Part shown: one piece after another, positions 3,961 to 59,655 of the stretch
How the letters are laid out: every line of letters begins with the position of its first letter
Position numbering within the stretch: the first letter of the stretch is position 1
Notes under the pieces: model-generated
The model's input: only the letters and a program-made list of their open reading frames with translations
Told to the model about the DNA's origin: nothing
The model's database searches: none
Position numbers and translations under genes: made by a program
Assembly (NCBI GenBank): GCA_964592195.1
Contig: CAZQEI010000005.1
Coordinates: forward strand, 5,689-69,688
Length of the DNA: 64,000 nucleotides
Source of the DNA: an uncultured Gammaproteobacteria bacterium
GTDB taxonomy: Bacteria > Patescibacteriota > Patescibacteriia > UBA11705
Direction: 5' to 3'

Positions 3961-5121
3961 TTATACATTTATTATTTCTTTTATCACCGTTGTGCCATTA
4001 AAACCATAAACCGCACATTGAGTGTTAGAAATCGGTTTGATGCTGGTAATTTCCTTAATACCACTATTTCTAGAACAAACCTCACCTTTATCATTCATAA
4101 CTACATGATTCCCCTCTCTATTCATCACACAATAAATTAGACGCTCGCCAACTACTTGAGTTAAACCATATTCAACTAAACGACCAAAATTACCGGGCAG
4201 GATTTCTTTGCCATCTACCCAGAGATGTTCTTCTCCTGAGCCTTCAAATGAAACAGCCACCAGTTTATTATTCCAAAACAATATCTTTTTTATCATTTTT
4301 AATTTTAACGTCCAATCAACCATTTTACTATTTATTTCAACGCCATTTTGTGCATTACTTTTACGCTGTAAAATAACCGCCAAATCATTTTCATTACGAG
4401 CAAAACCTAATATTATTGAATCTCCGGGAGCGTTATAAATTAGTCCTCCCTCAGAGACCACAGATTGACATCCCGCCATGATTGCAACAACATATAATTT
4501 ACCATCAATAAGATTAATGCCTCCAAATTTACTTACCTTATATTTACTCACCCAATCAATCCGCTTTTCATCAACCCAGATATGCAGTTTGTCAGAATTG
4601 TCTCTCCCATAAATGATAAAATGTCCATTTGAGTTTGCAACATCCACTCGATCCACAACCTCGGGGACTGCGTATTCATGCCCATTTTTCATATAGACAC
4701 CCGGCTTTAAATTATTCCTAGACTCATCACAAACCGAAACTGCATAACCATCTGGAATGCTAATTAAATTGTAGAAATTTGCATAATCCTCAGTTAGCAC
4801 ATTACCTAGATCATCCATAAGAATATCATTCTCACCATTTCTTATATGATAAACAAAACCTTTTTCAAGAGGAACAACGTTAAATATTTCAATATTTTCA
4901 CCTTCAATAAAATCACGAACATTCACACTGACAGCTTCCAACGACTCAGGTTTTACCAACCCGGCATAGTTTTCCACTTCTTTCAACAGTCGCGCCACAT
5001 GATCAGGATCTTTAGGATTACCGGTTTTGGCTAGTTCGCGCAATCGTTCATTAACATCAACCAAACTCACTGATTGCTCGTGAGTAACATCGCCGGTTAA
5101 TTTTTGTTCAAATGGTGACAT
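3961..5121 (-). CDS. N-module family protein F1 (conserved N-terminal module MSPFEQKLTG.. plus predicted beta-propeller-like C-terminal region)
   Basis: The ORF track gives 3961-5226. The homologous start MSPFEQKLTGDVTHEQSVSLVDVNERLRELAKTGNPKDPDHVARLL is at ATG 5119-5121, and the upstream 35 codons are read through a GC hairpin repeat. Confidence 0.6.
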   Translation of the reverse strand: MSPFEQKLTGDVTHEQSVSLVDVNERLRELAKTGNPKDPDHVARLLKEVENYAGLVKPESLEAVSVNVRDFIEGENIEIFNVVPLEKGFVYHIRNGENDILMDDLGNVLTEDYANFYNLISIPDGYAVSVCDESRNNLKPGVYMKNGHEYAVPEVVDRVDVANSNGHFIIYGRDNSDKLHIWVDEKRIDWVSKYKVSKFGGINLIDGKLYVVAIMAGCQSVVSEGGLIYNAPGDSIILGFARNENDLAVILQRKSNAQNGVEINSKMVDWTLKLKMIKKILFWNNKLVAVSFEGSGEEHLWVDGKEILPGNFGRLVEYGLTQVVGERLIYCVMNREGNHVVMNDKGEVCSRNSGIKEITSIKPISNTQCAVYGFNGTTVIKEIINV

Positions 5122-5212
5122 TGTATTGTATATTATGAAATCTACTTCCTGCTTTTCCGCCTGAGGCGGATCCGCCTTTGGCGGAGGAATTTTGGATTTG
5201 AAATTTGGAATT

Positions 5213-6904
5213 TTAATTTTTATCATTTAACTCATTCTCATGAACAAACATAAAATTTTCGAGATCGAATAATCGTTTGTAAAGTTTATCATCTTGGCGA
5301 TAAGTCACCCAAGCGAATGACTTTGATGCTGGTGTGATGGAAACAAAGGCATCAGAGACTAAAATGCAAGGCGCTATCACTTGCTCACGCCCTTGTTCAT
5401 CAAACATGATCCAATCATCACCATCCTTCAACCTTTTTGTGACAAAAATTACCTTATCACCCACAGGAATCGATTTTATCCCATTTCCAGTGGAAACATC
5501 AAGAATTGTCTTTATAACACCTCTATCAGGACTAAAAATTGTAGTGTAGCGACTATCCGCCCCATGTTTGGATGAATAGTACAACTTATTTTGTGAATTA
5601 TGAATCACGGCACAATCTGACAACTCTTCATTAAAAAACTTTTTAGTTATCCTTTCCCCTTTTGCATTAAATACTTGCGTTCCAAAATTTTCATAATAAC
5701 CAATCACATACACCTCCTCGCCTTGAACAACCAATGAACTAGGTGTAGAGCAACCAGATTGCAAAAAATTCATATCCAAGTTACCATTAACCGCCAGGCA
5801 GGTACTAGCGGAGACTCTTAAAGAATGAGTAGAATAAACATGCTGACTATTTTCAACTATATTAACAACCCGACCATCAACATTATTTTTAATAACCTTA
5901 CCGCTTGAATTGAGTATGTATGCTTGAGAAATATTATTTACAGGCCAACTGCCTACCAAAAAGAATCCTTGGCCCTCATTATTCACTCTCACTGCGGGAT
6001 TTGAAATATAACCTTCCAGCGGTTCGCCGGTGGGTGTCGAGCCAAGGTACCCAGGCGTATTTTTCTTGCCCCAAATTTCACCTTTGTGATCACATATATA
6101 AAAATGTTGATCCTTGTCCTTCAATGCCATAAAAACTTTATCCCCGACTGGTTGCAAATGTCCAGTAATAATATATTCATCGGGCAAATCAAGAATACCA
6201 TCACGCTCAGAATACAGGCACCACTTATTATTTTTGATAACTAAGAACATATACTGACCTTGAAATCGAATAACTGTTTGCACGTCAATTCTAGAAAATT
6301 CTCCCTTGAATCTTTTACCATCCATCGTTACCAAGGAATAAAAGCCATCCATTTCTTTCTCTTGCCAAACTGCAAAATCTCCGGACATCAAATTTTGATA
6401 ATTCGCAGTTTCATTGACAGAAACATTAGGATTGATAACTTCGTTTTTTTCATTCACAAACCTATTCGGATTAAACCCTCCATCATTCTTGTCCCCTACA
6501 AAAATCACTTGACTTCCCACTTCACCTATTTCTGTGAAAGTGACAAAACCTTTACCTCCGGAAATATCTTCATTCGATTCATTAAAAACATGAACCATAC
6601 CATCCTTGTCATCGCAGGTAAAAAACAAGTGGCCATCAAAAACATAAATATTACTTTTATCCAAATTTGCAATTTGATTTATTTCATCAGTCTCAAATAA
6701 ATGAACAATCACATCATTTAAAATTTCCGACTTTTCAATCTGATTGGAATAGGCTGCCACTAAAGACAACAAAGTCTTCACTCTTCGCGGATCACGAGTA
6801 TCACCCTCCTTTACCACTTCACGCAGGCGTTCGTTTAAATCAACCAAGCTCACCGATTGATCGTGAGTAATATTGCCAGTTAGTTTTTGTTCAAATGGTG
6901 ACAT
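5213..6904 (-). CDS. N-module family protein F2 (563 aa, beta-propeller-like C-terminus)
   Basis: Starts MSPFEQKLTGNITHDQSVSLVDLNERLREVVKEGDTRDPRRV. The C-terminal region is rich in beta-strand repeats. Confidence 0.6.
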   Translation of the reverse strand: MSPFEQKLTGNITHDQSVSLVDLNERLREVVKEGDTRDPRRVKTLLSLVAAYSNQIEKSEILNDVIVHLFETDEINQIANLDKSNIYVFDGHLFFTCDDKDGMVHVFNESNEDISGGKGFVTFTEIGEVGSQVIFVGDKNDGGFNPNRFVNEKNEVINPNVSVNETANYQNLMSGDFAVWQEKEMDGFYSLVTMDGKRFKGEFSRIDVQTVIRFQGQYMFLVIKNNKWCLYSERDGILDLPDEYIITGHLQPVGDKVFMALKDKDQHFYICDHKGEIWGKKNTPGYLGSTPTGEPLEGYISNPAVRVNNEGQGFFLVGSWPVNNISQAYILNSSGKVIKNNVDGRVVNIVENSQHVYSTHSLRVSASTCLAVNGNLDMNFLQSGCSTPSSLVVQGEEVYVIGYYENFGTQVFNAKGERITKKFFNEELSDCAVIHNSQNKLYYSSKHGADSRYTTIFSPDRGVIKTILDVSTGNGIKSIPVGDKVIFVTKRLKDGDDWIMFDEQGREQVIAPCILVSDAFVSITPASKSFAWVTYRQDDKLYKRLFDLENFMFVHENELNDKN

Positions 6905-7021
6905 TCTGTTAGATTTAAGATTAGAGTTTATAGATTGTAGATATTATGGGTGATGGTAATTGGGATAAGGATGCCAGAAAATAATATTCGTGGATTCCCC
7001 GCGTGGCGGGGCAGGCGTGGT

Positions 7022-8260
7022 CTAATTCGAGAGATCTTCCTCCGACACTGGTTCCATAATATCAACTGTCACGCAAATCGCTTGACCATCTTTAACTCCA
7101 TAAACCTTGCATATATTATCTTTTATTGGTTTCACAAAACTAATCGCATCGAATATGCCAACTCGAATGCAAGCCTCACCTTCATGGTTAACCAATCGCA
7201 ACCCATCGGAAGCATAGTCAGCAATCACAAACCCATCACCGACCTTCGTTAGTTCTTTACCATTTTCAATAATAATAAGTGGTTCTGCTGAGTCTGATGC
7301 CATCACTGTGTTCCTGGGGAAATCATTGTCAGCAACATATAAAGCCTTCCCTTCCCAAATTATGGAATTCCCAACCATATTTAAAATACGATCATCCAAA
7401 AATTTTTGATTTTTTCCTCTAATTTGTTTTATTCCGTAATGTTTATTGAACTCATCACGGTATTTAACATATAAACCATCCTCACCATCAGTAAATATTT
7501 CATTAACATTAAGACAACTAAACAATTCTTCCACTTATACCCCATCAATAAGCAAAAAATGTGTCTTATCACGCGATCCGACACAGACAATTTGATTATG
7601 ATAAAAACAAAAACTTGTAAAATATGAATAATTACTGGCCCATTCCTGTTCCTGTCCGTCAATCATCAAGGATGCAACAACTGTTTCTTTATTTCGTTTA
7701 TAGCCATCATCAGTAAAGATTATTTCGTGGCCACCAACATTCTTAACTGAAACACCTGAAAAGTTTTTATACCTGAGATCTTCTCCATTTTTTCTAATAA
7801 TCACAATATCCTCATGAAAGTCATTATGAAATCTCGATGGATGACTGCCCCTTTTACCTGTGGCAACAAATGAATCTCCAACTGATACTAAGTTGTTCAC
7901 TTCCCGTAAATTTTCAGACAAAACCTTACCTTTATTATCGACAATGATAAAATCCGAAGCTCTCCTCCCGATGATCACCGCACCACCAGCAATCGGCACA
8001 ACCTTCATAATTTGGTAAATGCCTAAATTTTCAAAATTAAAAACATCAAAGAGAACCTTCTTGCCTAATTTAATCTCATCCAAATCATCTTCAAATTCTT
8101 TTGAATATTTCTCCACCAATTGCAATAAAGCAGCAACGTTCTTTGGATCACGCGGATTTTTCACTTTTGCAGCTTCGTGCAAGCGTTCGTTAATATCAAC
8201 CAAACTCACCGCTTGATCGTGAGTAATATTGCCAGTTAATTTTTGTTCAAATGGTGACAT
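7022..8260 (-). pseudogene. N-module family member F3, interrupted by an in-frame TAA (7535-7537)
   Basis: ORFs 7535-8260 (N-module MSPFEQKLTGNITHDQAVSLVDINERLHEAAKVKNPRDPKNV) and 7022-7534 are in the same frame, separated by a single TAA. Together they are colinear with the intact paralog at 8387-9616 (both C-termini end ...ICKV.G..D..QAICVT...SEEDL). Confidence 0.55.
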
Positions 8261-8386
8261 TCTGTTAAATTAGAGATTATAGATTTTATGTGATAATTAA
8301 ATCTTATTCGTGGATTCGTGGGAAATTCGTGGATTCCCCGCGTGACGGGGCAGGCGTGGGACATTTATGGATTTGCGGTCAATATA

Positions 8387-9616
8387 TTATAGATCTTCCG
8401 CTGAAACAGTTGTCATCGTATTTATAGTCACACAAATCGCTTGATTATTTTTATCAATTCCACAAACTTTGCAAATATTACCTTTAACAGGAAGAATGTC
8501 AGTAATTCTAACAAAATCAGATGGTTCTATACATGATACTCCTAAATAATTATAAACAGTTACACCATCGCCGGAAAGATCCCTACCAATCACGAGAAAA
8601 TCTTCATTAAAAGGAATAATGCCAAGCGATTCCTTGACTGTAAACAAGGGATTATTTTTATCTTTGGTCAAAGTAATATCGAGATAGCCTTGACCTGCAG
8701 TTGAGGATGTTTTCATGAATACCATCTGACCATAATTACCAGAGTATACAACTTGGTTGTTCACAATCCTAGTTAATTCAACCTCTTTGGAATCGTCATT
8801 TGTTTGAATTTCTTTAACCAATGTTACAGTTGTAATCCGCTTATCCGTGTAACAAACAAATAATTCATCCTTGGCATTTGAAATTAAATTAGTCACAGAG
8901 TCACAATCAGGTAACTCTTCCTCTTCCTTACCATCTAAAACAAGCCACCATTTACCATCACGATAACCAGCGCATGCGATGCCTTTGCAATAAGAACAAA
9001 ATGCTTTAACCTTTATATACTTTTTTGCCCACTCTTGATTTATTCCATTAATAATAACTTTAGCGGGTAAGTTCGTTTGATTTATTTTATGATAGGCGTA
9101 GACAATTTCACAATTATCAACAATCGCAATATTTGCATATCTATAACCGATTAACGATTCGTCTTCTCCCTGTGGTCGAACCACATTTATACTACCACCA
9201 CGATGAACAAGCGCGACAAAAGAATCTGTACCAATCCTATGAGGTCTGACATAAACATGATCAAAATTATCAGAATATTTTTTCCCATCAGTATCTAACA
9301 AAATTTTACCGGACTGATCATCACCATAAATCAAGATCTTCCTGCCAAAAAGTAAAACTGACTGGATATATTTTAATCCATATCTTTGAATAATATCCGA
9401 GTTGAAAAGTATTTTTTTCCCTAATTTTGTCCCATATAATTCATCCTCAAATTCCATGGAATATTGCTCCACCAATTGCAACAATGTGGCAACGTTTTTC
9501 GGGTCACGCGGGTTTTTACCTTTTGCGACTTCACGCAAGCGTTCGTTAATATCAACCAAACTCGCCGCTTGATCGTGAGTAACATCGCCAGTTAATTTTT
9601 GTTCAAAAAGAGACAT
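8387..9616 (-). CDS. N-module family protein F4 (beta-propeller-like C-terminus)
   Basis: The homologous start MSLFEQKLTGDVTHDQAASLVDINERLREVAKGKNPRDPKNV is at ATG 9614-9616. The ORF track start at 9640 adds 8 codons. Confidence 0.6.
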   Translation of the reverse strand: MSLFEQKLTGDVTHDQAASLVDINERLREVAKGKNPRDPKNVATLLQLVEQYSMEFEDELYGTKLGKKILFNSDIIQRYGLKYIQSVLLFGRKILIYGDDQSGKILLDTDGKKYSDNFDHVYVRPHRIGTDSFVALVHRGGSINVVRPQGEDESLIGYRYANIAIVDNCEIVYAYHKINQTNLPAKVIINGINQEWAKKYIKVKAFCSYCKGIACAGYRDGKWWLVLDGKEEEELPDCDSVTNLISNAKDELFVCYTDKRITTVTLVKEIQTNDDSKEVELTRIVNNQVVYSGNYGQMVFMKTSSTAGQGYLDITLTKDKNNPLFTVKESLGIIPFNEDFLVIGRDLSGDGVTVYNYLGVSCIEPSDFVRITDILPVKGNICKVCGIDKNNQAICVTINTMTTVSAEDL

Positions 9617-18189: not shown

Positions 18190-19182
18190 TTATTCTTTTA
18201 AAAATGCTATTGTAATGCGAAAACCGGTTGTCTGGCTCGGGGTGTAAACATTTTCATTGGTTGTAGTATATAGACTTCCTGCACCTCCATTTTCACTACC
18301 ACCTACTAATATTCGCATATTTGATTTATAACCATCGTGACTAACAACAAAAGTTCCTGATAATTCTGAAGTTTTAACTTGACTTAATCCAGGGAATTCT
18401 TCATTCAATCTACGATTAACAAGTGCCGGAGTCAAAATAACTTCAAAATTTGGCAAACTCAACCCTTCTTCATTCCATTTTTTTTGAATTATATTTTTTA
18501 ATTTTGGAAAAGTATTCGAAATTAACCACATACCCACCCTATTAAAGCGAAGATTTGAACCACCACCTATCATTTTAGCTATTGGATCTAGGTTTTCAAT
18601 ACTCCCAGAATATGAGCCATAGTGTTCCCCCATAACCTCGCCCTCAAGACTGTTTGGTCTTATTATGGTTTCTGTTACCAATAAAGAATATTTTTCTGCT
18701 ACTTCTTTAGCATCCTTAATTAATGACCGCTCCATAACTTCTGACATGATTGAACCTGGCTGATGAACTAAACTATACACACCAGGACTTCTTTGCCATA
18801 AATGTGATCTAAAATTTACCAATGTTTTGTCTTTATCTGGCAAAGCATTCCACTGGCTTTCAGTAATTTCGGGGAACAAAGATAAAAATTTCTCATGATT
18901 CATATCACCATCTTCAGCCGGATCAGTAATAAATGGTTCAAATTGTCCAAAAATTAATTCTTTTATGGCGTCAATATGTTCACTATATTTTTCCGCTGGG
19001 GTAATAGTCTCAACCGTTCCGGCATACTCTTCCACCAATCGCAAAGCTTCCGCCACTTGATCGGGTTTGGGAATTTTTTGGTTCTTTATTTCAACCGCCA
19101 AATCTCGTAACTTTTCATTTACTGAAACAACTGTGGCACCTTGTTCTGGCTTTAAATTTTGAGTTAATCGTTCACCTATCAT
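18190..19182 (-). CDS. N-module family protein F5 (type-B C-terminal domain) inserted between the hydrogenase small and large subunit genes
   Basis: The likely start MIGERLTQNL..VNEKLRDLAVEIKNQKIPKPDQVAEALRLVEEYAG is at ATG 19180-19182. It shares IDAIKELIFGQFEPF, VILTPALVNRRLNEEFPGLSQV, ENGGAGS and the C-terminal GFRITIAFLKE with the 54998-58367 array. Confidence 0.6.
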   Translation of the reverse strand: MIGERLTQNLKPEQGATVVSVNEKLRDLAVEIKNQKIPKPDQVAEALRLVEEYAGTVETITPAEKYSEHIDAIKELIFGQFEPFITDPAEDGDMNHEKFLSLFPEITESQWNALPDKDKTLVNFRSHLWQRSPGVYSLVHQPGSIMSEVMERSLIKDAKEVAEKYSLLVTETIIRPNSLEGEVMGEHYGSYSGSIENLDPIAKMIGGGSNLRFNRVGMWLISNTFPKLKNIIQKKWNEEGLSLPNFEVILTPALVNRRLNEEFPGLSQVKTSELSGTFVVSHDGYKSNMRILVGGSENGGAGSLYTTTNENVYTPSQTTGFRITIAFLKE

Positions 19183-23144: not shown

Positions 23145-23186
23145 TTATTATACAAAATTTTACCAACTGTGTAAAACAAAAATGCC

Positions 23187-38703: not shown

Positions 38704-39675
38704 TCAAATACTTGGGTCTGGTTTCCATTTAAATAATATCCCTGCTGTCCCAAAGGCTGACATAGTCGGTCTCAAACCATCTTGACATAAAACAATTTCA
38801 TCATTCACCACGCCAACGCCCACATGATCTCTTCGCCTGACATCAAAAGCTCTAAAGAAACCTATATCACTACCTGGTTTATGAAAATGTTCTGGTCCAC
38901 GAACCATAATGAAATATAGTAATTCCTCAATCGTTACTCCATATTTTTCCCAAATTTTTTTTGCACTAGTCATCGATGGTTGTAATAGATTTAAATGACT
39001 AGCAAAATTTTGTATTGCTTTTGCACGAAGGAAAAAATCATCTTCCGTTAAACTTGACCCCTCCACAATGTTATTGCTAATCAACATCCAACCAGGAGAT
39101 AACGATTTCGTGTCCGGAATGTTTAGTCTTAAAATATCTGGAAAATTTCCGGCATTGAGAGAAGTGCTTTGCATTCTCATAGTCACTTTTCTATCAAGTA
39201 AAAAGCGACACATATCATAAAGTTTCGGAGACTCAGTTAATTTACCAGCAACAACCATATAACGAGGAATATAGACCAAGCTCATGTTCAATTCTTTTGC
39301 TCTTTTCAACTCGCCAACATTAAATGGAATCTCGGGTATCCCGGATCTTTCTTCCAAAAATAAATATTCATCAAATTTACTGCTACAAAACGCATTATCT
39401 TCTGGTCCGTAAACATTATCATGACCCATAATTTCTCGAGCTAATTCAAATTGCATCTCCCACGGGGAGCCAAACTCACGCCTTTTAACAGGATTATAAG
39501 CCTCTAATTTTTCTTTTATAATTCTAATCTCATCCGGACTCAAAGGCTTACCATTCTTAGCTTTCACCATGGCATGCAGTTGCTCCATTAAATCAGCGTA
39601 AGAAAGAGATTCTTCGCCTTTTGATAAGGTTAAATCAATTTTTGGTTCACCGATGGCCATATTTATTTTTCCCAT
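38704..39675 (-). CDS. N-module family protein A1 (type-A C-terminal domain)
   Basis: MAIGEPKIDLTLSKGEESLSYADLMEQLHAMVKAKNGKPLSPDEIRIIKEKLEA, then SLVYIPRY, GWMLISNNIV and a C-terminal GILFKWKPDPSI. The probable true start is the internal MAIGEPK Met. Confidence 0.55.
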   Translation of the reverse strand: MGKINMAIGEPKIDLTLSKGEESLSYADLMEQLHAMVKAKNGKPLSPDEIRIIKEKLEAYNPVKRREFGSPWEMQFELAREIMGHDNVYGPEDNAFCSSKFDEYLFLEERSGIPEIPFNVGELKRAKELNMSLVYIPRYMVVAGKLTESPKLYDMCRFLLDRKVTMRMQSTSLNAGNFPDILRLNIPDTKSLSPGWMLISNNIVEGSSLTEDDFFLRAKAIQNFASHLNLLQPSMTSAKKIWEKYGVTIEELLYFIMVRGPEHFHKPGSDIGFFRAFDVRRRDHVGVGVVNDEIVLCQDGLRPTMSAFGTAGILFKWKPDPSI

Positions 39676-40637
39676 TTGAATAAAATACCGGCTTGATGAA
39701 AAGAATCTGTGGCAGATAATAATTGCTCTTCAAATAGCACTAATTCTTTATGTGCCACGCCAATCCCAAACTGATCACCGTGTTCTTCACCATATGCACG
39801 AAAAACACCTTTATCACTACCGGACTTCCAAACTTTTTCTTCTCCACGCACAATGATAAAATATAATAATTCAACTATTGTTGGACAATGTTTTTTAAAA
39901 GTATCATCAATGTCAATATTTGAGCCTATTCGTTCATCAACGGACAAACGACTAAAAAACTCTTTCAATCTAAAAGCCCTCTGAAATTGATTTTCCTCAG
40001 TTAAGTCTGTGTTTTTCACTATTTGATTACTTATCATCATCCAACCAGAGGTTAAATGAATATAAAAATCTTTTTCTTTCACACTGCTTATGATTTCAAG
40101 CAAATTCCCAGCATTTATAGATCTGTCCATAAATCTCATTGCTTTCTGCATTTCTAAAAGCCTCAAGACCATGTGTACAAGCGATGGGATTTCTACATTT
40201 TTTTTCCTTACAATAATTCTTCCCGGCTTATACACCAAACACATATCCATTTCTTTTGCTCTTTTCAACTCATCCGCCGTAAATGGAATTTTATCAATAC
40301 CATACTTCATCTCGGCCTGCATATATTCGTCAAACTCGTTACCATAACAAAAAACATTTTGCTCAGGTCCATAGACATTGCCCTCGCCCATGATTTCTCG
40401 AGCAACATTAACTTGATCTTCCCAATCTCCACTAATTTCTTTTTGATTTCCAGGATCAAAAGACTCTAGTTTATCTTTAATGATTCTAATTTCATCCGGA
40501 CTCAATGGCTTACCATTCTTAGCTTTCACCATGGCATGCAGTTGCTCCATCAACTCGGCGTAAGAAAGTGATTCTTCGCCTTTTGATAAAGTTAATCCAA
40601 TTTTTGGTTCTCCGATGGCCATAATTATTTCTCCCAT
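39663..40637 (-). CDS. N-module family protein A2 (type-A)
   Basis: Colinear tandem paralog. MCLVYKP, GWMMISNQIV and a C-terminal GILFKWEK. Confidence 0.55.
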   Translation of the reverse strand: MGEIIMAIGEPKIGLTLSKGEESLSYAELMEQLHAMVKAKNGKPLSPDEIRIIKDKLESFDPGNQKEISGDWEDQVNVAREIMGEGNVYGPEQNVFCYGNEFDEYMQAEMKYGIDKIPFTADELKRAKEMDMCLVYKPGRIIVRKKNVEIPSLVHMVLRLLEMQKAMRFMDRSINAGNLLEIISSVKEKDFYIHLTSGWMMISNQIVKNTDLTEENQFQRAFRLKEFFSRLSVDERIGSNIDIDDTFKKHCPTIVELLYFIIVRGEEKVWKSGSDKGVFRAYGEEHGDQFGIGVAHKELVLFEEQLLSATDSFHQAGILFKWEK

Positions 40638-41554
40638 TTAAATAACACACCGCTATGTTTCAAATTACTGGTATTTGACAATGCATCGTTAACTAAAAAA
40701 CTTATTTCATTAAAAAATACACTTAAACAAAATGAATCCCTATGTTCTTCATCAAAAGCCCGAGCGACAAATCTATCTGATCTAGGCACCCACATATTTT
40801 TCACCCCTCGCACAAGACAAAAATACAAAAGTTCGGCCATTGACGGACAGTGTCTTTCCCATATAGCATTAGGCAAAACAGTATTTCCGGCTTCATATTC
40901 TTTGAATCTTAACCAATCATGACCAAAAAACGCCATTTTTTCAGCCCGCTCTCTGAAATTACTATCTTTGTCATCAGTTTTTTTTATTATATTTTTTGAA
41001 AGCAACATCCATCCTGATTTAAACATTGAATTTTTATCAATATTTTTTAAAACATCTTTATCCAACCCACAATTGATAGTTACTCCCAAATTCTTTGCCA
41101 CTTCCATAAAAGATTCAAGTCTGGGATTATACATTTCAACATTTGAAAATCTAAATGCCCAAGGTTTATAGACTAAACACATATCCGCTCTTCCCGCCAG
41201 CTCAAGGTCAAATTCAGAAAAAGGAATATCTGGGATATTATTAAGTATCTTCGTGTTTAACGCTGATGCAATTACATCTGGTCCATACACATTTTCCGCT
41301 CCCAATATTTCTCTGGCAATATTTACATCCGCTCGATCAAATTCATATTGATTTGATTTATCAGGAACAAAAGCTTCTAATTTTTCTTTTATAATTCTAA
41401 TCTCATCCGGACTCAAAGGCTTACCATTCTTAGCTTTCACCATGGCATGAAGTTGTTCCATCAACTCAGCATAAGAAACTGATTCTTCGCCTTTTGATAA
41501 TGTTAAATCAATTTTTGGTTCACCAATGGCCATAGTTAAATAAATTTTTCCCAT
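40625..41554 (-). CDS. N-module family protein A3 (type-A)
   Basis: Colinear tandem paralog. MCLVYKP, GWMLLSKNII and a C-terminal GVLFKWEK. Confidence 0.55.
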   Translation of the reverse strand: MGKIYLTMAIGEPKIDLTLSKGEESVSYAELMEQLHAMVKAKNGKPLSPDEIRIIKEKLEAFVPDKSNQYEFDRADVNIAREILGAENVYGPDVIASALNTKILNNIPDIPFSEFDLELAGRADMCLVYKPWAFRFSNVEMYNPRLESFMEVAKNLGVTINCGLDKDVLKNIDKNSMFKSGWMLLSKNIIKKTDDKDSNFRERAEKMAFFGHDWLRFKEYEAGNTVLPNAIWERHCPSMAELLYFCLVRGVKNMWVPRSDRFVARAFDEEHRDSFCLSVFFNEISFLVNDALSNTSNLKHSGVLFKWEK

Positions 41555-42453
41555 TTAAACATAACGCCGGAACCTTTAAGCTCATCCTTATTAGTTAACT
41601 TTTCTTCATCAAAACCAAATAACTTATTCCCCGTCATCGCCAATCCCAAATAATGTATTTGCGATTTGTCGTATCCACGAGCTTTAAAGATCTCTTGCCC
41701 GGACAGCATTAATCGCTCTTTTCCCAAGGTCATCATTACAAATAATAATTCGGGCAAAGACATAACATGATTTTGCCACAATCTTTTAGCCAGATTTTCA
41801 TTCATGGCCTCATTGTACCCCATATCCAATCTATTAACCGCGAAATCCTGCAAACATGCTGCTTGTTGAAAATAGTTCTTGCCACCCACAGAAAGTTGTA
41901 AAACATTTTTTGATACTAGCACCCAGCCAGAATGCATCATATTACTCGGAACTAAATTTGGATTATTTTCCGCCCAACTAAAAGCATCAAAACTTTCAGT
42001 TACCAATTGACTCATAGCTTCAAAACTTACTCCCAGAGTTTCGCTCAGTCCAAACTGTTCCGGTGTTGGTTTATAAATCAAAAACATTCCACACTCACTG
42101 GCTTTTTGCAATTTCTCTTCGGTAAAACGGATGGCGGGTAATTCAGCGATGGGCGCCAAACTCCAACGTGTAGCAATTTCATCTGGTCCAATAAAATTTT
42201 CTCCAAACAAACCTCTCGCCACCTCCATCTGCGCTTCCACCCTGGCGCGCTTTAACATTTTTTCATGATTAAATCGGTTCTCTTTATATTTATCAAATAA
42301 TTTGCAAACATAAGCTACATCATCTGGATCCAGATGAACACCTTTTCCCTTGGCCAATACCAACGCATGAAGTTTTTCTGTTAACTCCGCGTAAGACAGA
42401 TGATCATCGTCTTGCGATAAGGTTAAATCAATTTTGGGTTCACCGATTGCCAT
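41536..42453 (-). CDS. N-module family protein A4 (type-A)
   Basis: Colinear tandem paralog. MFLIYKP, GWVLVSKNVL and a C-terminal GVMFKWEKFI. Confidence 0.55.
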   Translation of the reverse strand: MAIGEPKIDLTLSQDDDHLSYAELTEKLHALVLAKGKGVHLDPDDVAYVCKLFDKYKENRFNHEKMLKRARVEAQMEVARGLFGENFIGPDEIATRWSLAPIAELPAIRFTEEKLQKASECGMFLIYKPTPEQFGLSETLGVSFEAMSQLVTESFDAFSWAENNPNLVPSNMMHSGWVLVSKNVLQLSVGGKNYFQQAACLQDFAVNRLDMGYNEAMNENLAKRLWQNHVMSLPELLFVMMTLGKERLMLSGQEIFKARGYDKSQIHYLGLAMTGNKLFGFDEEKLTNKDELKGSGVMFKWEKFI

Positions 42454-42455
42454 AA

Positions 42456-43361
42456 TTATTTAGACCATCGAATTATACATCCATTATCAATAAATGCTCT
42501 CTCACCATCAAAAAAAGAATTATAATCATACACCAATATACTTCCATCATTCTCTATATCGACCAAAGCGGTAAAATCCCCTTCTTTTCTATCATAAGCT
42601 AATGAGGTTAAAATACCCGGGATATTTTCTTTACCTCTCAAAACATAATAATAAAGGAGATCAACGACAGATAAACAAAACTCTGGTAAAACATTTTCCG
42701 TCTGAGGGCTAAATCGTTCTTTGAAATGGGCGGTAGCAAATTCCCAAATTTTCGATGACCTATCCAAGGTCGTGCATTTTTTTGTACCGGGAACAATATC
42801 CTTGCTGATTAACACCCATCCACTTAGCATACTGGACGAATCTTGAACTCTTTTACTAATATCATCCCACTTTTCATTTCCCCAACGTAAATTTATCCCA
42901 ATTTCATGCGCCTTCTCACATAATTCTTTCAAATTTGGATAGCTAACATCTTCGCCTCCTACATTAATTTTATTAGGTCGAAAAACTAAGCACATGCCAG
43001 CTGATTCTGCTCTTTTTAATTCTTCCACTGAATATGGAATATCTAAGACCTCTTGTGGCCAAGGTGATTTCCATCTTTCGACAAACTCCTGTGGGCCTAA
43101 CACATTTTCCTTCCCCAAAATTTCTCTAGCCTGTTTCAATTGACGTTTAAGATTTTTAGATAATTGATCTTCTGAATCAACCACTTCATTAGGAGTAAAC
43201 GCTTCTAATTTATTTTTAATTAATCGAATCTCATCTGCCGTCAATGGTTTACCATTCTTCGCTTTCATTATGTCATGCAACTCAGACATCAAACCAGCGT
43301 AGGAAATTTCTTCCTCGCCTTTGGATAAAGTTAAATCTAATTGTGGTTCTCCTCCCACCAT
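42456..43361 (-). CDS. N-module family protein A5 (type-A, most divergent)
   Basis: MVGGEPQLDLTLSKGEEEISYAGLMSELHDIMKAKNGKPLTADEIRLIKNKLEA, then MCLVFRP, GWVLISKDIV and a C-terminal GCIIRWSK. Confidence 0.5.
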   Translation of the reverse strand: MVGGEPQLDLTLSKGEEEISYAGLMSELHDIMKAKNGKPLTADEIRLIKNKLEAFTPNEVVDSEDQLSKNLKRQLKQAREILGKENVLGPQEFVERWKSPWPQEVLDIPYSVEELKRAESAGMCLVFRPNKINVGGEDVSYPNLKELCEKAHEIGINLRWGNEKWDDISKRVQDSSSMLSGWVLISKDIVPGTKKCTTLDRSSKIWEFATAHFKERFSPQTENVLPEFCLSVVDLLYYYVLRGKENIPGILTSLAYDRKEGDFTALVDIENDGSILVYDYNSFFDGERAFIDNGCIIRWSK

Positions 43362-45945: not shown

Positions 45946-45951
45946 GCTTAG

Positions 45952-47619: not shown

Positions 47620-47663
47620 TAGAGATTGCCACGTCGTCCCGATTAATCGGGACTCCTCGCAAA
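47620..47663. repeat. Intergenic repeat family R1, copy d (core module only)
   Basis: agagattgccacgtcgtcccgattaatcgggactcctcgcaaa. Confidence 0.6.
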
Positions 47664-47674
47664 ATAGGGATTAA

Positions 47675-54474: not shown

Positions 54475-54993
54475 TTATTCCACGGTTATTTGATTAGTTT
54501 TCGGGTTAACATACACAAACAATCGAATATCAGATTTTTTTCTAGATTGAAAATTCGCCACTGCAGTAGTTTCCGTGACTTCACAATCTTGACCGAAACA
54601 AACTCCTTGAGAATAGTGCTTTGACAAGAAGCTGGGAGTATAGTTCAAAGTAAAATTCCAATCAGGCGAAATGGAGATATCTACTGGTCCGATTTGCTCG
54701 CCTTCATCACAAAGAAAATCACCGTTCAAATCTGCGCATACTGTGGCAGTTCTATTTGATTCATTATAATAAACTCCAAAGGAAAACGGCACCCTCCCGT
54801 TCACCTTCTCGGAAGCTTCAGCTTTTTGCTTAGCAAGATTTAACAACGAGACATATTCATCTGCCGCTTGGCGAACTGCATAGCGCTCAGCCACCTTTTG
54901 CCAAGTTAAAAACGTCATAGCGCCAACTAATATTACCAAAACAACGACTAACAATACGTCGATTGAATAAAACTTTTTTAGATATTTTTTCAT
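54475..54993 (-). CDS. hypothetical exported/membrane-anchored protein (172 aa)
   Basis: An N-terminal TM/signal anchor and a Cys-containing extracytoplasmic region. Confidence 0.3.
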   Translation of the reverse strand: MKKYLKKFYSIDVLLVVVLVILVGAMTFLTWQKVAERYAVRQAADEYVSLLNLAKQKAEASEKVNGRVPFSFGVYYNESNRTATVCADLNGDFLCDEGEQIGPVDISISPDWNFTLNYTPSFLSKHYSQGVCFGQDCEVTETTAVANFQSRKKSDIRLFVYVNPKTNQITVE

Positions 54994-54997
54994 ATTT

Positions 54998-55951
54998 TTA
55001 TTTTTTAAAAGCTATCGTAAAACGAAAACCAGTATGATCATTTCTTGTATTATCTCGAACAACATTAATATTTCCAGCGCCTTCTCGACCACCAACCACA
55101 AGATTTTGCCAAGTATTTAAACCTAAAGTCGAGGTTCTTTCTTCCCCAAGAGTTTGCGTTAAGGCTGGATAAACTTCACACAATTGTCGGAACAATAATG
55201 CTGGCGTTAATATCACATCAAAATCTCGATATTTTAATTTTTTTTCATTCCAGTCATTACAAATCATTTCTTTAATTTTTGCTAATATTATATTCACCTC
55301 ATCAATACATAATTTAAACCGCCCATATCTAGAAGCCGTTGGTGGTAACCCATCACACCAGGTTATTATTGACTCGACTATATCTAGGTTTTTCGAAAGA
55401 CCTTCTTGTGAACCATAATGTTTTTCTTGAAATGTGGTAACCGAGGGTTTTTGAATACTCTCCGTAACAAATAAATCATATTTTTGTGCCAGTTGTTCAG
55501 CTTCTTTTTTCATTATCTCAAAAAACACCTCTGATCCAATTCTATTGCCATCTAATCCAGTCTGTTTCATGCTGGTGCTTCGATAATTCACCAAGCCTTT
55601 CTTTGAATCTTCTTCAGTTTGTTCTACTGGATACATTTTATTAAACCATTCTGCGGTTAATTCTTCGGGATGTATTGGTTCTGAGATAAACGGCTTATTT
55701 TCACCAAAAAATATATCTTCAATCGCTTTTATCTGTTTACCATATTTCATTTCCTTTGGAGAAGAATCTTCAACCGTTTCACCAAATGCCTGGACAAAGC
55801 GCAAAGCTTCCAAGACCTGTTCTGGTTTAGGATTTTTGCCTTGAGACTTTATTCTTTTTGCCAAGTCAAACAAACCCTCGTTGATTTTAATTTGATCATT
55901 GGATTGGGAGGGTGTGAGGTTAGCGGTTAATTTTTCAACGTTATTTAGCAT
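54998..55951 (-). CDS. N-module family protein B1 (type-B C-terminal domain)
   Basis: VEKLTANLTPSQSNDQIKINEGLFDLAKRIKSQGKNPKPEQVLEALRFV, then IKAIEDIFFGENKPF, WFNKMYP, VILTPALLFRQL, REGAGN and a C-terminal GFRFTIAFKK. Confidence 0.55.
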   Translation of the reverse strand: MLNNVEKLTANLTPSQSNDQIKINEGLFDLAKRIKSQGKNPKPEQVLEALRFVQAFGETVEDSSPKEMKYGKQIKAIEDIFFGENKPFISEPIHPEELTAEWFNKMYPVEQTEEDSKKGLVNYRSTSMKQTGLDGNRIGSEVFFEIMKKEAEQLAQKYDLFVTESIQKPSVTTFQEKHYGSQEGLSKNLDIVESIITWCDGLPPTASRYGRFKLCIDEVNIILAKIKEMICNDWNEKKLKYRDFDVILTPALLFRQLCEVYPALTQTLGEERTSTLGLNTWQNLVVGGREGAGNINVVRDNTRNDHTGFRFTIAFKK

Positions 55952-55956
55952 GATAA

Positions 55957-57204
55957 TTAAATTTCACGATTTTTTGTAAAATCTCTTTTTCGATCCTCAA
56001 GCTCATTAATTAAATGCTCCATTTCATAAAATTTAGTATTTGCTGAAATTACAGAACCTAACATCGTGTTCATTCTTGCTGTATGCGCTAATCTTTTCCT
56101 CATCGTTATTAAAATTTTATCAATTTGAATTACTGCATCTTTAATAAAGTCATGCGCTTCTTTCTCTTTATAAAAAACTATTGACAATCTAAAAAACTCA
56201 GCGTGTTTATCATCCATAGTTTTATACCACACTGACCCAGCACCGCCATTCTCCTGATCTTTATCTTCTTCGTAACCAATAAAGCCTCCAATAGTCAAAT
56301 AAGCCTTTTCGTTTTCGATCTTGGTGGAAGTCAAAATTCTATAAATTGATTGCGACAATTCCGGTTTATCCTCCATAATTTGCCTGGTAATTACAGCCGG
56401 CGTGCACATCACGCGAAATGGTGGTATTTTCAAGCCTTGCTCTTTCCACTTTTTTATTAATTCATCTTCTATCTTTTGCACTAATGTCAACCTAACATCA
56501 TCTACACCTAAAAAATATCTGGTTTTATTTTCTCCAAATGCTTCATTAATATAATCATTGATCGGATCAATCACTAATCCACGACGTTTATCATCCTGTT
56601 CAATTGGCATTGCTAATTCCGAATACACCATTTCCCAATCCGACATTTCCGTCACTTCATTTTTCATGGCACGAACAAAGTCATCCATGAAAGTTTTAAC
56701 TAAACAATCTTTGGGTTTATAATTTTTCTTCAACTTCTTTTTAAACCACTCAATCACAGCATATTCTTTTCTTGCAACACTAAGATCAATATTGCAAATA
56801 TGTGGTCGAAAATTCAATCTCCCAGCTTTAACATCTTCATCGCGTTGATGATCTTTATCCACATTGGGAAACATTTTTTCAAACCAAGCATCGTTAATCT
56901 CTTCCGGCTTGGGTGGTAAACAAACGTATGGTTCATCAATGCCGAAAAATTGATCTTGAATCGCCTCAATATATGTTCTAAATTTTTCTTTTGGATCAGC
57001 TTCCTTAGTCAAACTATAAGATTGCTCCACTAACCGCAAAGCTTCCTTTATTCGTTCACTATCCCGAGCACCGCCTTCTTCTCGAATCCTCTTCGCCAAC
57101 GCTCGCATATCTTCATCAACCCGAACCCGCTCCACGGCTTGCGCTGGAGTTTGATTAGCTGTGAGTTTTTCAATATGATTTGGCATTGTAATTATTGCTC
57201 CCAA
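55957..57204 (-). CDS. N-module family protein B2 (type-B)
   Basis: IEKLTANQTPAQAVERVRVDEDMRALAKRIREEGGARDSERIKEALRLVEQ, then WFEKMFP, VMCTPAVITRQI, ENGGAGS and FFRLSIVFYKEK, plus an extra C-terminal tail. Confidence 0.55.
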   Translation of the reverse strand: MGAIITMPNHIEKLTANQTPAQAVERVRVDEDMRALAKRIREEGGARDSERIKEALRLVEQSYSLTKEADPKEKFRTYIEAIQDQFFGIDEPYVCLPPKPEEINDAWFEKMFPNVDKDHQRDEDVKAGRLNFRPHICNIDLSVARKEYAVIEWFKKKLKKNYKPKDCLVKTFMDDFVRAMKNEVTEMSDWEMVYSELAMPIEQDDKRRGLVIDPINDYINEAFGENKTRYFLGVDDVRLTLVQKIEDELIKKWKEQGLKIPPFRVMCTPAVITRQIMEDKPELSQSIYRILTSTKIENEKAYLTIGGFIGYEEDKDQENGGAGSVWYKTMDDKHAEFFRLSIVFYKEKEAHDFIKDAVIQIDKILITMRKRLAHTARMNTMLGSVISANTKFYEMEHLINELEDRKRDFTKNREI

Positions 57205-58352
57205 CTTTTATTTCTATTTTTTGTAATATCTCTAATAGCTTTCCCCCTTAAAATCATATTTTCTAAATTCAAGTATTTCAAATATTGAGGATTTTGATAC
57301 ATATTTGAAATTGATGACAATTTTTTATCATGTTTTTCATGTTTCTTTTTAATTTCATCTATTTGTTTCTCTTCCTCAATTGAAAGTGGTCTATCTTTAT
57401 AAAAAACAATTGAAAGTCTAAACATAGTAAACTGGGGGGCATCCTTAACATTCAAAGTTCCAATTGCCCCAGCCCCGCCAAGATCAACCCCACCAGTAGT
57501 TAACCATTTTGTTGTCTCTTTACCAGACTCATCGAGTAAAGGTGTTTCGCTCAGAACACTAAAATCCAATTTAGACATATTGGGATTTTGTTCCATAAAC
57601 TGCCTAGAAACAGATACTGGAGTTAATAAAACTTGAAAAGCAGGAATTTTAAAACCCGACTTCTTAAATTTTTTCACAATATTATCTTCCATACTTCGCA
57701 AAAGACCATAAAGTTGGATTAATAATCCACCCTTTGCTGCTCTTGCAATTGAAAAAACATTATCGTCAATTTTAATATCCGCATTTGAAATCAAAAGTCT
57801 GCTTGTAAAAACAGATTCACTCTCTTTCAAAAATTCCGCTTCAGCTTTTATCGATCGAAAATATGCTCCCATTACCGAATGTTCTTCAGAAACAGATTTA
57901 CTAGACCTATCAAGTCTAGATAGAAGCTTACTCACTATTCCAAACTTAGCTCGTTTATTTTCCGATGGTGGTCGAAAGCAAATTCTTCCCGCCGTAAGAT
58001 CCTCAGGTCGTTGGTGGTCATTATCCACATCAGGATACATCTTTTCAAACCATTCATCAGTTAAATCTTCAGGTTTTGGAGGAATAGAGAAAAAAGGCTC
58101 CTTATTTCCAAATAATTCTTCCTGAATAACTTCAACATATGGTAAATACTTTTCTCTTGGATCTTCTTCCCTAGTTAAACTATAAGATTGCTCCACTAAC
58201 CGCAAAGCTTCCTTTATTCGTTCACTATCCCGCGCACCGCCTTCTTCTCGAATCCTCTTCGCCAACTCTCTCAAATTTTCATCAATCTGAATCCGCTCCA
58301 CGGCTTTTTCTGGAGACAAATTAGCGGTTAAATTTTCAGCGTGATTTTTCAT
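57192..58352 (-). CDS. N-module family protein B3 (type-B)
   Basis: Its N-module is nearly identical to B2 (ENLTANLSPEKAVERIQIDENLRELAKRIREEGGARDSERIKEALRLVEQSYSLTREEDPREKY). VLLTPVSVSRQF, LGGAGA and FRLSIVFYKDR. Confidence 0.55.
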   Translation of the reverse strand: MKNHAENLTANLSPEKAVERIQIDENLRELAKRIREEGGARDSERIKEALRLVEQSYSLTREEDPREKYLPYVEVIQEELFGNKEPFFSIPPKPEDLTDEWFEKMYPDVDNDHQRPEDLTAGRICFRPPSENKRAKFGIVSKLLSRLDRSSKSVSEEHSVMGAYFRSIKAEAEFLKESESVFTSRLLISNADIKIDDNVFSIARAAKGGLLIQLYGLLRSMEDNIVKKFKKSGFKIPAFQVLLTPVSVSRQFMEQNPNMSKLDFSVLSETPLLDESGKETTKWLTTGGVDLGGAGAIGTLNVKDAPQFTMFRLSIVFYKDRPLSIEEEKQIDEIKKKHEKHDKKLSSISNMYQNPQYLKYLNLENMILRGKAIRDITKNRNKSWEQ

Positions 58353-58366
58353 GTATAAAATTCAAA

Positions 58367-59344
58367 TCAATTCTTGTAAAATATTACAGAGATCCTAAAA
58401 CCAGCGCCTGAAGTGCCCTTATCCATAGTGTCAATATTACCAGCACCACCATTAGGGGTACCGACTACCAAGCATCTTTCAGTTTTATTCCCATCTTTAT
58501 CCAATAAATCTGTAGACGTTGTTTCCCAGAAGCTTGATTTTGTCATCTCTAGATTTTCCCCCATAATTTGTCGTTGAATAATTGCTGGAGTGCAAATTAC
58601 ATCAAACTTCGGAACTTCCAAAAGATTTTCAAGCCACGCTTTTCTTATTTTGGACTTTAACATTCTTAGTAACCTATTATCAATTGTTTCTCGAGAAAGC
58701 ATTGATCGATGGGTAGCGCGAAAATTAGTACAATCTTTAATAAAAGGAACTAAAACATCAGCGTTGCTTGATCCTTGATGATCATGGTCTGGGTCATTTA
58801 ATCCATAATGTTGCAATACACCGGATTTTTTTATTAACGGTTTACCAATTGTTTCAGTCAAAACCAATTCACAGTTGTTCATTTGTCGAGCTTGCGTGCG
58901 GATTGAACGAGCAAAGACACTAAACCAAGTTTCCCCTGGGAATGACTGGCAAATTTCTTCAGCAGGATCAAAAAAATACCTAGGTCTAAAATTTGTAACT
59001 TTACTTTTTGGATCTTGTTCTATCGGATACATTTTTTCAAACCAAGCATCAGTCATTTCATCCACATGAAAAGGAATGGAAACAAAGGGTTTATTTTCAC
59101 CAAACAACAATGGTTCAATAGCCTCAATATGCTTACGATATTTTTCACGAGGATCCGCCTCCACCAATGTTTTTTCATATTCCCCCACCAATCGCAAAGC
59201 CTCCACTACTTGCGCAGGAGTGGCTTTCTTGCCTTGAGCTTTTACTCGACCAGCCAAATCCATCAAACCTTCGTTAACAGTAACTTGATCAATGGCGCGG
59301 GCGGGCGTGGGACTAGCGGTTAATTTTTCAAAAGATGATTTCAT
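58367..59344 (-). CDS. N-module family protein B4 (type-B)
   Basis: FEKLTASPTPARAIDQVTVNEGLMDLAGRVKAQGKKATPAQVVEALRLVGEYE, then VICTPAIIQRQI, NGGAGN and GFRISVIFYKN. Confidence 0.55.
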   Translation of the reverse strand: MKSSFEKLTASPTPARAIDQVTVNEGLMDLAGRVKAQGKKATPAQVVEALRLVGEYEKTLVEADPREKYRKHIEAIEPLLFGENKPFVSIPFHVDEMTDAWFEKMYPIEQDPKSKVTNFRPRYFFDPAEEICQSFPGETWFSVFARSIRTQARQMNNCELVLTETIGKPLIKKSGVLQHYGLNDPDHDHQGSSNADVLVPFIKDCTNFRATHRSMLSRETIDNRLLRMLKSKIRKAWLENLLEVPKFDVICTPAIIQRQIMGENLEMTKSSFWETTSTDLLDKDGNKTERCLVVGTPNGGAGNIDTMDKGTSGAGFRISVIFYKN

Positions 59345-59655
59345 TTAATAAGTTTATGAAATTTATTTTTTAATTTCCCTTTTTTACCAACGAATAATTT
59401 GTCTACTTCTGCAATCATTTCACCTAGACCAGCGTTTAATTCCTTTATGACTTTATCAAATAATTCAGCGTCGATAATTTTCGTAGTATCTTCATATTGC
59501 CCGACTAATTTCAAAGCCTCTGAAACTTGTTCTGGCGTCGCCTTTTTACCTTGTAACTTAACTCGCCTAGCCAACTCCATTAACTTCTCGTTTACATCTA
59601 CTTGATTAACAGCTTTTTCTGGAGTCACATTGGCAGTCAATTTTTCTTGACTCAT
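59341..59655 (-). CDS. N-module-only family member B5 (104 aa, truncated)
   Basis: MSQEKLTANVTPEKAVNQVDVNEKLMELARRVKLQGKKATPEQVSEALKLVGQYEDT with no C-terminal domain. Confidence 0.5.
   Translation of the reverse strand: MSQEKLTANVTPEKAVNQVDVNEKLMELARRVKLQGKKATPEQVSEALKLVGQYEDTTKIIDAELFDKVIKELNAGLGEMIAEVDKLFVGKKGKLKNKFHKLIK

What the first reader, a model, noticed from the sequence alone, without database searches (positions are those of the whole stretch)
3961..59655. Expanded paralog family sharing a ~50-60 aa N-terminal module fused to at least four unrelated C-terminal architectures (17 or more genes, about 29% of the window)
Seen directly in the ORF translations: seventeen ORFs begin with the same kind of helical module. 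Its core is L[TQ][AG][ND].T...[AS]...V.[VI]NE.L.[ED]LA...K..G/N.[KN]..P..[VI].EAL.LV..Y. Examples are MSPFEQKLTGNITHDQSVSLVDLNERLREV, EKLTANLSPEKAVERIQIDENLRELAKRIREEGG, and EPKIDLTLSKGEESLSYAELMEQLHAMVKAKNGKPLSPDEIR. The module is joined to unrelated C-terminal regions: beta-strand-rich probable propellers (3961-9616, 4 genes); an 807 aa tandem-repeat protein (35681-38104); five tandem about 300 aa type-A domains (38704-43361); five type-B domains (18190 and 54998-58352, plus a truncated N-module-only gene at 59341). A shared, conserved N-terminal module with polymorphic payloads is the architecture of polymorphic toxin/effector or diversified surface-protein systems. Those use a common trafficking or docking domain (for example LXG, MIX, PT-TG). 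This is inference only: the module matches no family I can recognise by eye and has no signal peptide or TM segment. Flanking genes are suggestive: a prepilin peptidase sits immediately upstream of the type-B array and a standalone C39-like peptidase immediately downstream of the propeller array.
Basis: partly seen in the sequence, partly recalled or inferred. Interest (0 to 1): 0.9.

Follow-up and report, generated by a model that had tools for sequence, protein, structure and literature searches.

The report
Shared N-terminal handle on variable proteins
Eleven genes in this small-genome (CPR-type) bacterial fragment begin with the same undescribed ~60-residue two-helix module joined to unrelated, mostly repeat-type C-terminal regions; the module is real and confined to a few related genomes, but its function, most likely docking to a common partner, is still only inferred.

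Summary
The core observation holds, but for 11 genes, not 17. A ~60-aa N-terminal module (E.LT[AG]N.TP…V.VNE.L..LA…P..V.EAL.LV..Y) is present in exactly 11 ORFs (HMM E ≤ 2e-21) and covers 21% of the window.

It precedes two demonstrably unrelated C-terminal architectures. One is a β-hairpin-repeat class, which includes both the "propeller" genes and the 807-aa protein. The other is "type B". One further gene carries the module alone. ORF 7022-7534 is the tail of a gene cut by an in-frame stop. The five "type A" genes are at best remote relatives (hhalign probability 62%).

An exhaustive search of 1.84 billion proteins found only ~37 other members. All carry the module at residue 1, and they sit several per contig on about six other NCBI contigs. 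Their C-terminal regions include LRR, β-repeat and other unassigned domains. Pfam, NCBIfam, PDB, PADLOC and PHROGs gave no match. AlphaFold predicts a helical hairpin, and no member has a signal peptide or TM segment.

The best reading is a docking or adaptor handle that ties interchangeable binding domains to one partner, with the 5' ends homogenised among tandem paralogs. No toxin, immunity or secretion-system evidence was found, so the polymorphic-toxin reading is unsupported. The domain is new; the architectural principle is known.

The parts
3961..5121 (-). Beta-repeat class member. The ORF runs on to 5226, but the module starts at the internal ATG at 5121 (MSPFEQKLTG).
   Evidence: HMM E 4e-24. 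Start context. C-terminal cap alignment.
5213..6904 (-). Beta-repeat class member, 563 aa, the most divergent body in the class.
   Evidence: HMM E 2e-22. Repeats. Cap.
7022..8260 (-). Beta-repeat class member split by an in-frame TAA at 7535-7537 into 241 aa (with the module) and 170 aa (the tail). Either a pseudogene or a split gene.
   Evidence: Both halves are collinear with 8387-9616. Junction sequence.
8387..9616 (-). Beta-repeat class member, 409 aa.
   Evidence: HMM E 6e-24..
18190..19182 (-). Type-B member lying between the NiFe-hydrogenase small-subunit (19184-19948) and large-subunit (16909-18180) genes.
   Evidence: HMM E 1e-22. 37% identical to 54998-55951 over the full length. 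Neighbours identified by Pfam.
35681..38074 (-). 797-aa beta-repeat class member with 13 detectable ~42-aa repeats (core GKIAFVAKKNDGKWHIYYDGK) and the class C-terminal cap.
54998..59344 (-). Four tandem type-B genes: 54998-55951, 55957-57186, 57192-58352 and 58367-59344.
   Evidence: AlphaFold model of 54998-55951: hairpin H14-36/H43-59 at pLDDT ~85.
59341..59655 (-). Module-only gene, 104 aa. Its ATG overlaps the prepilin-peptidase stop codon (ATGA).
   Evidence: HMM E 6e-24. Overlap shown.
38704..43361 (-). Five tandem type-A genes. Their own conserved ~55-aa N-terminus is also a predicted helical hairpin. They are a borderline remote relative of the module and are not counted as members.
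59652..60461 (-). Prepilin peptidase (A24), first gene of the contiguous type-B block.
   Evidence: Pfam A24_N_bact 1e-32 and Peptidase_A24 7e-11.
54475..54993 (-). Single-pass membrane-anchored protein immediately after the type-B array. No family could be assigned.
   Evidence: KD19 2.9 at residues 11-29. No Pfam or PDB match.
3224..3763 (-). Standalone C39-like peptidase downstream of the beta-repeat array.
   Evidence: Pfam Peptidase_C39 6e-7.

Best explanation
The module is a previously undescribed, lineage-restricted N-terminal domain of about 60 residues. It consists of a short conserved unstructured lead (E.LT[AG]N.TP) followed by a two-helix hairpin.

It most likely acts as a common docking or adaptor handle. 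By pairing with like modules, or by binding one shared partner, it would connect interchangeable, non-enzymatic binding domains to the same cellular destination. The fused regions include beta-hairpin repeats, LRR and the type-B domain. The result would be a diversified receptor or binder repertoire.

The family grows by tandem duplication and domain shuffling within each genome, and the 5' module is kept uniform by gene conversion and/or purifying selection. Standalone module-only proteins would then act as partners or competitors.

Shown: the domain, its position, its fusions, its restriction to a few genomes, and the 5' homogenisation. Inferred: the docking function and the nature of the partner.
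For: - 11 modules are present in the window.
- Only ~37 other proteins in 1.84 billion match, and all start with the module.
- Fusions are to at least six sequence-unrelated C-terminal classes, including LRR. Similarity between classes is confined to the module.
- AlphaFold predicts a helical hairpin at pLDDT ~85, preceded by a low-confidence but conserved lead.
- There are several copies per contig: 12 on this contig, at least 8 on one other and at least 5 on another.
- The nearest module neighbour is on the same contig in 26 of 29 cases, sometimes across C-terminal classes.
- Between adjacent paralogs the module is 78-90% identical, against 31-46% in the rest of the protein. Same-codon usage is 0.73-0.87 in the module against about 0.5 elsewhere. 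DNA repeats D1, D2, D5 and D7 show the same pattern.
- Module-only proteins recur: P0001, P0026 and P0048.
- These properties match the 'EAD principle' of small helical terminal adaptor domains that occur in multiple copies per genome (PMC8195603).
Against: - No partner was identified.
- No NTPase or effector core of the kind that accompanies known adaptor domains is present in the window.
- Strict N-terminal placement and conserved 5' DNA could simply reflect duplication history.
- Gene contexts are heterogeneous: a hydrogenase operon, a glycolysis cluster and the prepilin-peptidase block.
- The contigs carrying the external members could not be retrieved.
Confidence: 0.45

Rival explanations
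1. The module is a trafficking domain for a non-classical export or surface-display route, possibly linked to the type IV pilus system. It would deliver polymorphic effectors or adhesins used in host interaction.
For: - The module always sits at the extreme N-terminus and has a conserved, probably unstructured lead.
- The payloads are of the adhesin or binder type: LRR and beta-repeats.
- The type-B array is contiguous with the prepilin peptidase and translationally coupled to it, and it is followed by a membrane-anchored protein.
- Diversified tandem arrays are typical of surface and host-contact proteins (general knowledge).
Against: - No hydrophobic signal, no prepilin motif and no Tat motif are present.
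- No toxin or immunity domains were found, and there is no LXG, WXG100 or PE match.
- No secretion ATPase or channel gene lies in the 64 kb.
- One member is embedded in a cytoplasmic hydrogenase operon.
- The beta-class proteins contain many cysteines, as read directly from the sequences.
Confidence: 0.27
2. The module has no shared function. The genes are ordinary paralogs, and their 5' ends look alike only because of recent duplication and gene conversion. The C-terminal parts have drifted or been replaced.
For: Same-codon identity is raised in the module between adjacent paralogs. DNA-level repeats lie at the 5' ends. Modules cluster by genome.
Against: - The module is conserved between different genomes and between non-adjacent, highly diverged members (30-45% identity) at the same specific columns.
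- In those comparisons codon identity is at background level.
- The module is retained on clearly different folds (LRR against beta-repeats) and as standalone genes.
Confidence: 0.15
3. The module is a cleavable leader that is removed by the neighbouring C39-like or prepilin peptidase.
For: The peptidase genes are adjacent to the arrays.
Against: - There is no conserved Gly-Gly or Gly-Ala site. GG occurs in only two members, in the inter-helix loop.
- There is no G/FTLIE prepilin motif or hydrophobic helix.
- The C39-like protein is standalone and not fused to an ABC exporter.
- The substrates, at 230-800 aa, are unlike bacteriocin precursors.
Confidence: 0.05
4. The similarity is a compositional artefact: low-complexity K/E-rich helices.
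For: The module is helical and rich in charged residues.
Against: The same columns are invariant across 43 sequences. Only 49 hits were found in 1.84 billion proteins. Column-shuffled controls score far lower. No other ORF in the window scores.
Confidence: 0.01

Closest known systems
Effector-associated domains (EADs) and bacterial Death-like adaptor domains (Kaur, Burroughs, Iyer, Aravind 2021, PMC8195603)
   Same: Both are small, non-catalytic, alpha-helical and terminally placed. Both occur in multiple copies in one locus or genome, with same-genome copies more alike than copies from other genomes. Both are fused to diverse domains.
   Different: No profile match was found to any Pfam family, and Pfam includes EAD families. 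No STAND, MoxR, vWA or effector-enzyme core is nearby. The host is a reduced-genome CPR bacterium, not a multicellular bacterium. The partners here are binding repeats, not effectors.
T7SS substrates with N-terminal helical-hairpin domains (WXG100, LXG, PE/PPE)
   Same: Both have an N-terminal helix-turn-helix hairpin joined to variable C-termini. Both families are expanded and clustered, and small hairpin-only relatives exist.
   Different: The module is ~60 aa, against 100-200 aa. It has no WXG motif. The acidic residue follows the conserved Tyr at +5 rather than in a YxxxD/E pattern. There is no Pfam match, no EssC-type gene in the window, and no toxin/immunity pairs.
F-box and similar substrate-receptor families (by analogy only)
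   Same: A short N-terminal helical adaptor is joined to interchangeable LRR or beta-propeller-type recognition domains, in large paralog families.
   Different: No sequence relationship was detected, and no cullin/Skp1-like partner is known in bacteria of this type. This comparison rests on general knowledge and was tested only through the negative Pfam result.
C-type-lectin-fold variable proteins of diversity-generating retroelements (relevant to type A only)

Membership tests
LXG / WXG100 / PE-PPE (T7SS substrates) | Profile match to PF04740, PF06013, PF00934 or PF00823 | tested here: not met
   Pfam scan of 10 window members and 10 external members at E <= 0.1 / 0.01 gave none.
LXG / WXG100 / PE-PPE (T7SS substrates) | WXG turn motif and/or a YxxxD/E export motif after helix 2 | tested here: not met
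   The alignments show no W-x-G. The conserved Tyr is followed by an acidic residue mostly at +5, not +4.
LXG / WXG100 / PE-PPE (T7SS substrates) | An EssC/EccC FtsK-type ATPase and other T7SS genes in the genome | tested here: inconclusive
   None is present in the 64-kb window. The rest of the genome is not available.
Polymorphic toxin systems | A C-terminal toxin domain followed by a cognate immunity gene | tested here: not met
   No toxin or immunity family was found in Pfam, NCBIfam or PADLOC. The arrays have no small interleaved genes.
EAD / Death-like adaptor domains | A small alpha-helical non-catalytic terminal domain, in multiple copies per locus, with same-genome copies more alike | tested here: met
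EAD / Death-like adaptor domains | Sequence-profile membership in a described EAD or bDLD family | tested here: not met
   No Pfam hit and no PDB profile hit. HHpred against the authors' own profiles could not be run.
EAD / Death-like adaptor domains | Linkage to a core conflict system (STAND/iSTAND, vWA-MoxR, TRADD-N, or protease/nuclease effectors) | tested here: not met
   No such genes are present in the window.
Double-glycine leader / C39 substrates | A leader ending in GG, GA or GS, cleaved by the C39 domain of an ABC exporter | tested here: not met
   No conserved GG site. The C39-like protein is a standalone 179-aa protein.
Type IV prepilins | A G|F/M-x-x-x-E cleavage motif followed by a hydrophobic helix | tested here: not met
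   Maximum 19-residue hydropathy is <= 1.73 in all members, and the motif is absent.
Sec/Tat-secreted or membrane proteins | An N-terminal hydrophobic signal peptide, a twin-arginine motif or a TM segment | tested here: not met
   hydropathy; sequence.
DGR variable proteins (type A only) | CLec fold, plus a reverse transcriptase and a template/variable repeat pair | tested here: not met
   [not shown]

The most novel reading that the evidence does not exclude
The module is the recognition handle of a so far unknown Sec-independent export or pilus-associated display route in CPR/Patescibacteria. That route would load a diversified set of LRR, beta-repeat and lectin-like binders onto the cell surface for attachment to hosts. 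The module-only proteins would act as chaperone-like pairing partners, as WXG/Lap proteins do for LXG toxins.
Probability: 0.15. Interest if true: 0.85.

Novelty: new variant of a known kind. Interest (0 to 1): 0.45.

Why it matters
CPR bacteria have tiny genomes, yet here about a fifth of a 64-kb stretch is spent on one family with no assignable function. If the module is a docking or export handle, it identifies a repertoire of diversified binding proteins. It also gives an entry point, through its partner, into how these largely uncultured and probably host-dependent bacteria recognise or attach to other cells. It would also add a new domain to the small set of helical adaptor or targeting modules that organise variable protein families. 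If it is only a paralog relic, the finding is a routine lineage-specific expansion.

Tried and rejected
- **Family and structure libraries.** Pfam, NCBIfam, PADLOC and PHROGs scans of members gave nothing significant. PDB sequence-profile searches with the module, type A, type B and the external 230-aa class gave nothing.
- **Word-index homolog searches.** These returned only proteins from the same contig and missed known members, so they are weak negatives.
- **Retrieving external loci.** Exact look-ups failed. One genome-contig scan found nothing and both metagenome-contig scans found nothing. The other genome-contig scan gave one truncated type-B relative in a Ca. Magasanikbacteria MAG. Three viral scans were negative.
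- **Common fold for type A, type B and the 230-aa class.** I had suspected this from motif resemblance. hhalign rejected it.
- **DGR hypothesis.** Rejected: no RT and no TR/VR pair.
- **Pilin identity of 54475-54993.** Not supported.
- **ART-like R/STS/E motif in type B.** Considered by eye and dropped, because only R and one T are invariant.
Full report
**Setting.** All substantial ORFs except one lie on the minus strand of a 37% GC sequence. The housekeeping content is typical of a reduced genome: ligase, glycolysis, F-ATPase, MetRS, a NiFe hydrogenase and a lone prepilin peptidase. The proteins are recorded on a single 81,855-bp NCBI contig. The only relative of the type-B genes in GTDB species representatives is in a Candidatus Magasanikbacteria groundwater MAG. 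I therefore treat the organism as CPR/Patescibacteria, probably near that group; this is an inference.

- BLASTP links the N-termini of the 'propeller' genes, the 807-aa protein, the type-B genes and the 104-aa gene, and the links stop at about residue 60-90.
- An HMM built from these sequences scores them at E 1e-26 to 1e-35.
- A six-frame scan with a broader 43-sequence profile finds exactly 11 copies (E <= 2e-21) and no hidden ones.
- The conserved columns are specific: L and T in the lead, N-E in helix 1, P at the start of helix 2, and L..V..Y in helix 2.
- An exhaustive HMMER search of 1.84 billion representative proteins returned 49 hits. Eleven are these genes and one is a low-complexity false positive. 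The rest all carry the module starting within residues 1-12.

Compositional bias is therefore excluded.

- ORF 7022-7534 has no module. It is the tail of a gene (7022-8260) interrupted by one in-frame TAA, and the two parts are collinear with 8387-9616.
- The 'propeller' genes and the 807-aa protein are one architecture: module, then a variable number of about 42-aa beta-hairpin repeats, then a conserved ~50-aa C-terminal cap. The repeat core is GKIAFVAKKNDGKWHIYYDGK, with 13 copies in the long protein. The cap is shared with 11 external proteins. Whether these fold as propellers was not tested.
- The five type-A genes are not demonstrable members. They have no BLAST link. hhalign gives 16% probability against the 11-sequence module profile, 2% against full-length type B and 0.4% against the external 230-aa class.
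- With the deeper profile, the type-A N-terminus does score in register: 62% probability, P 7.8e-5, score 26.3 against 9.3 +/- 2.2 for 100 column shuffles.
- Four of the five type-A ORFs are also the best non-member hits in the window, and AlphaFold predicts a hairpin at the same place. They may be remote relatives.
- Proven members occupy 13.3 kb (21% of the window); with type A the figure is 28%.

**Anatomy.**
- AlphaFold2 on a type-B member gives helices 14-36 and 43-59 at pLDDT ~85, preceded by a low-confidence but conserved lead (overall pLDDT 63, pTM 0.62). The C-terminal alpha/beta part is poorly defined.
- No member has a hydrophobic stretch compatible with a signal peptide or TM helix. 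Maximum 19-residue hydropathy is <= 1.73, against 2.4-2.9 for membrane-protein controls.
- Genes in the arrays are separated by only a few bases.
- The prepilin-peptidase stop codon overlaps the start of the module-only gene (ATGA). That block runs without gaps through four type-B genes into a membrane-anchored protein and an EamA transporter.
- One type-B gene sits between the hydrogenase small- and large-subunit genes.

**Distribution and evolution.**
- External members fall into at least five further C-terminal classes. These are a ~165-aa domain (16 proteins), LRR (confirmed by Pfam), two unassigned classes of about 320 aa and about 400 aa, and more beta-repeat proteins.
- Profile-profile comparison between classes aligns only the module (98% probability).
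- The external proteins sit on about six NCBI contigs, several per contig. A twelfth member, P0043, lies on this contig outside the window.
- The nearest relative of each module is on the same contig in 26 of 29 cases, sometimes across C-terminal classes.
- Between adjacent paralogs the module is 78-90% identical at the protein level, against 31-46% in the rest of the protein. Identical residues use the same codon 73-87% of the time, against about 50% elsewhere. The longest DNA repeats in the arrays are the 5' ends. This indicates homogenisation by gene conversion on top of selection.
- Between distant members, codon identity is at background while the protein motif persists. This argues for functional constraint.

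**What it is not.**
- There is no match in Pfam, NCBIfam, PDB sequences, PADLOC or PHROGs.
- No relatives were found in viral contigs or JGI metagenomes.
- There are no toxin or immunity domains, no WXG or YxxxD/E motif, no double-glycine site, no prepilin motif, and no reverse transcriptase or TR/VR pair.

**Mechanism (inference).** The module is short, helical and strictly terminal. It is multicopy per genome, evolves in concert, is fused to binding-type scaffolds, and also occurs alone. These are the properties described for homotypic adaptor domains under the 'EAD principle' (PMC8195603). On a different axis, they are also the properties of the hairpin targeting domains of T7SS substrates.

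I therefore favour a docking handle that pairs with like modules or with one common partner, and so assembles or localises a repertoire of variable binders (confidence 0.45). The specific version in which the partner is an export or pilus-linked apparatus is the main rival (0.27). It is supported only by the module's position, the type of payload and the prepilin-peptidase operon. The lack of any signal or machinery, and the copy inside the hydrogenase operon, argue against it. A non-functional paralog relic (0.15) and a cleaved leader (0.05) are less likely.

**Novelty.** The domain itself is undescribed and confined to a handful of related MAGs. The organisational principle, a shared terminal module with swapped domains, is well known. 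I rate it a new variant of a known kind, of moderate interest.

Noticed in passing
window 45,980-47,500 (flanks 45,793-47,674): A ~1.5-kb island of 54-66% GC sits in a 37% GC genome. No frame is open, even if any single stop codon is read as sense. Folding energies are well below dinucleotide shuffles: z is -2 to -5 across the island and -7.7 at 47,450-47,670, against about 0 for coding controls. There is no Rfam family and no similarity to E. coli rRNA. A ~65-nt block is duplicated (46,022-46,086 and 46,407-46,469). It could be a large unclassified structured RNA or a decayed foreign insert.
   Followed up: partly
window 18190-19182: A family member (type B) is inserted between the small-subunit and large-subunit genes of a NiFe hydrogenase operon. 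Its start lies one base after the small-subunit stop codon. This is an unusual place for a variable paralog.
   Followed up: partly
window 3809-3879 vs 3009-3079: A 71-nt copy, 75% identical, of the 5' end of the DNA-ligase gene lies upstream of the C39-like gene. It looks like a relic of a duplicated ligA start (D9).
   Followed up: no
window 636-684 / 29178-29226 and 23186-23239 / 33100-33153; 62819-63910: Palindromic intergenic repeats occur in two families, one 96% identical and one 76% identical, and resemble REP elements. A Y1/IS200-like (RAYT-like) transposase gene lies at the window's end, with a weak Pfam hit of E 1e-3.
   Followed up: no
window 24696-25763 and 25880-26968: Tandem paralogs, 77% identical, give only a weak hit to the carboxysome-shell carbonic anhydrase catalytic domain (E 7e-6). 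A tRNA-Gly(CCC) lies just downstream at 24513-24586.
   Followed up: no
window 9829-11406 and 11411-13012: Two adjacent ORFs are 41% identical to each other. From the N-terminal sequences I read them as cofactor-independent phosphoglycerate mutase genes, but they were not scanned against any family library. They lie next to ORFs read in the same way as enolase and PGK. Such a duplication is unusual for a reduced genome.
   Followed up: no
[not shown]
   Followed up: partly
L001 44-439 (JACROI010000022.1, Ca. Magasanikbacteria MAG): This is the only type-B relative found outside this contig. It is truncated at the contig start and is 39% identical over residues 196-324, ending in the same GGAG...FR.S..FKK motif.
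   Followed up: partly
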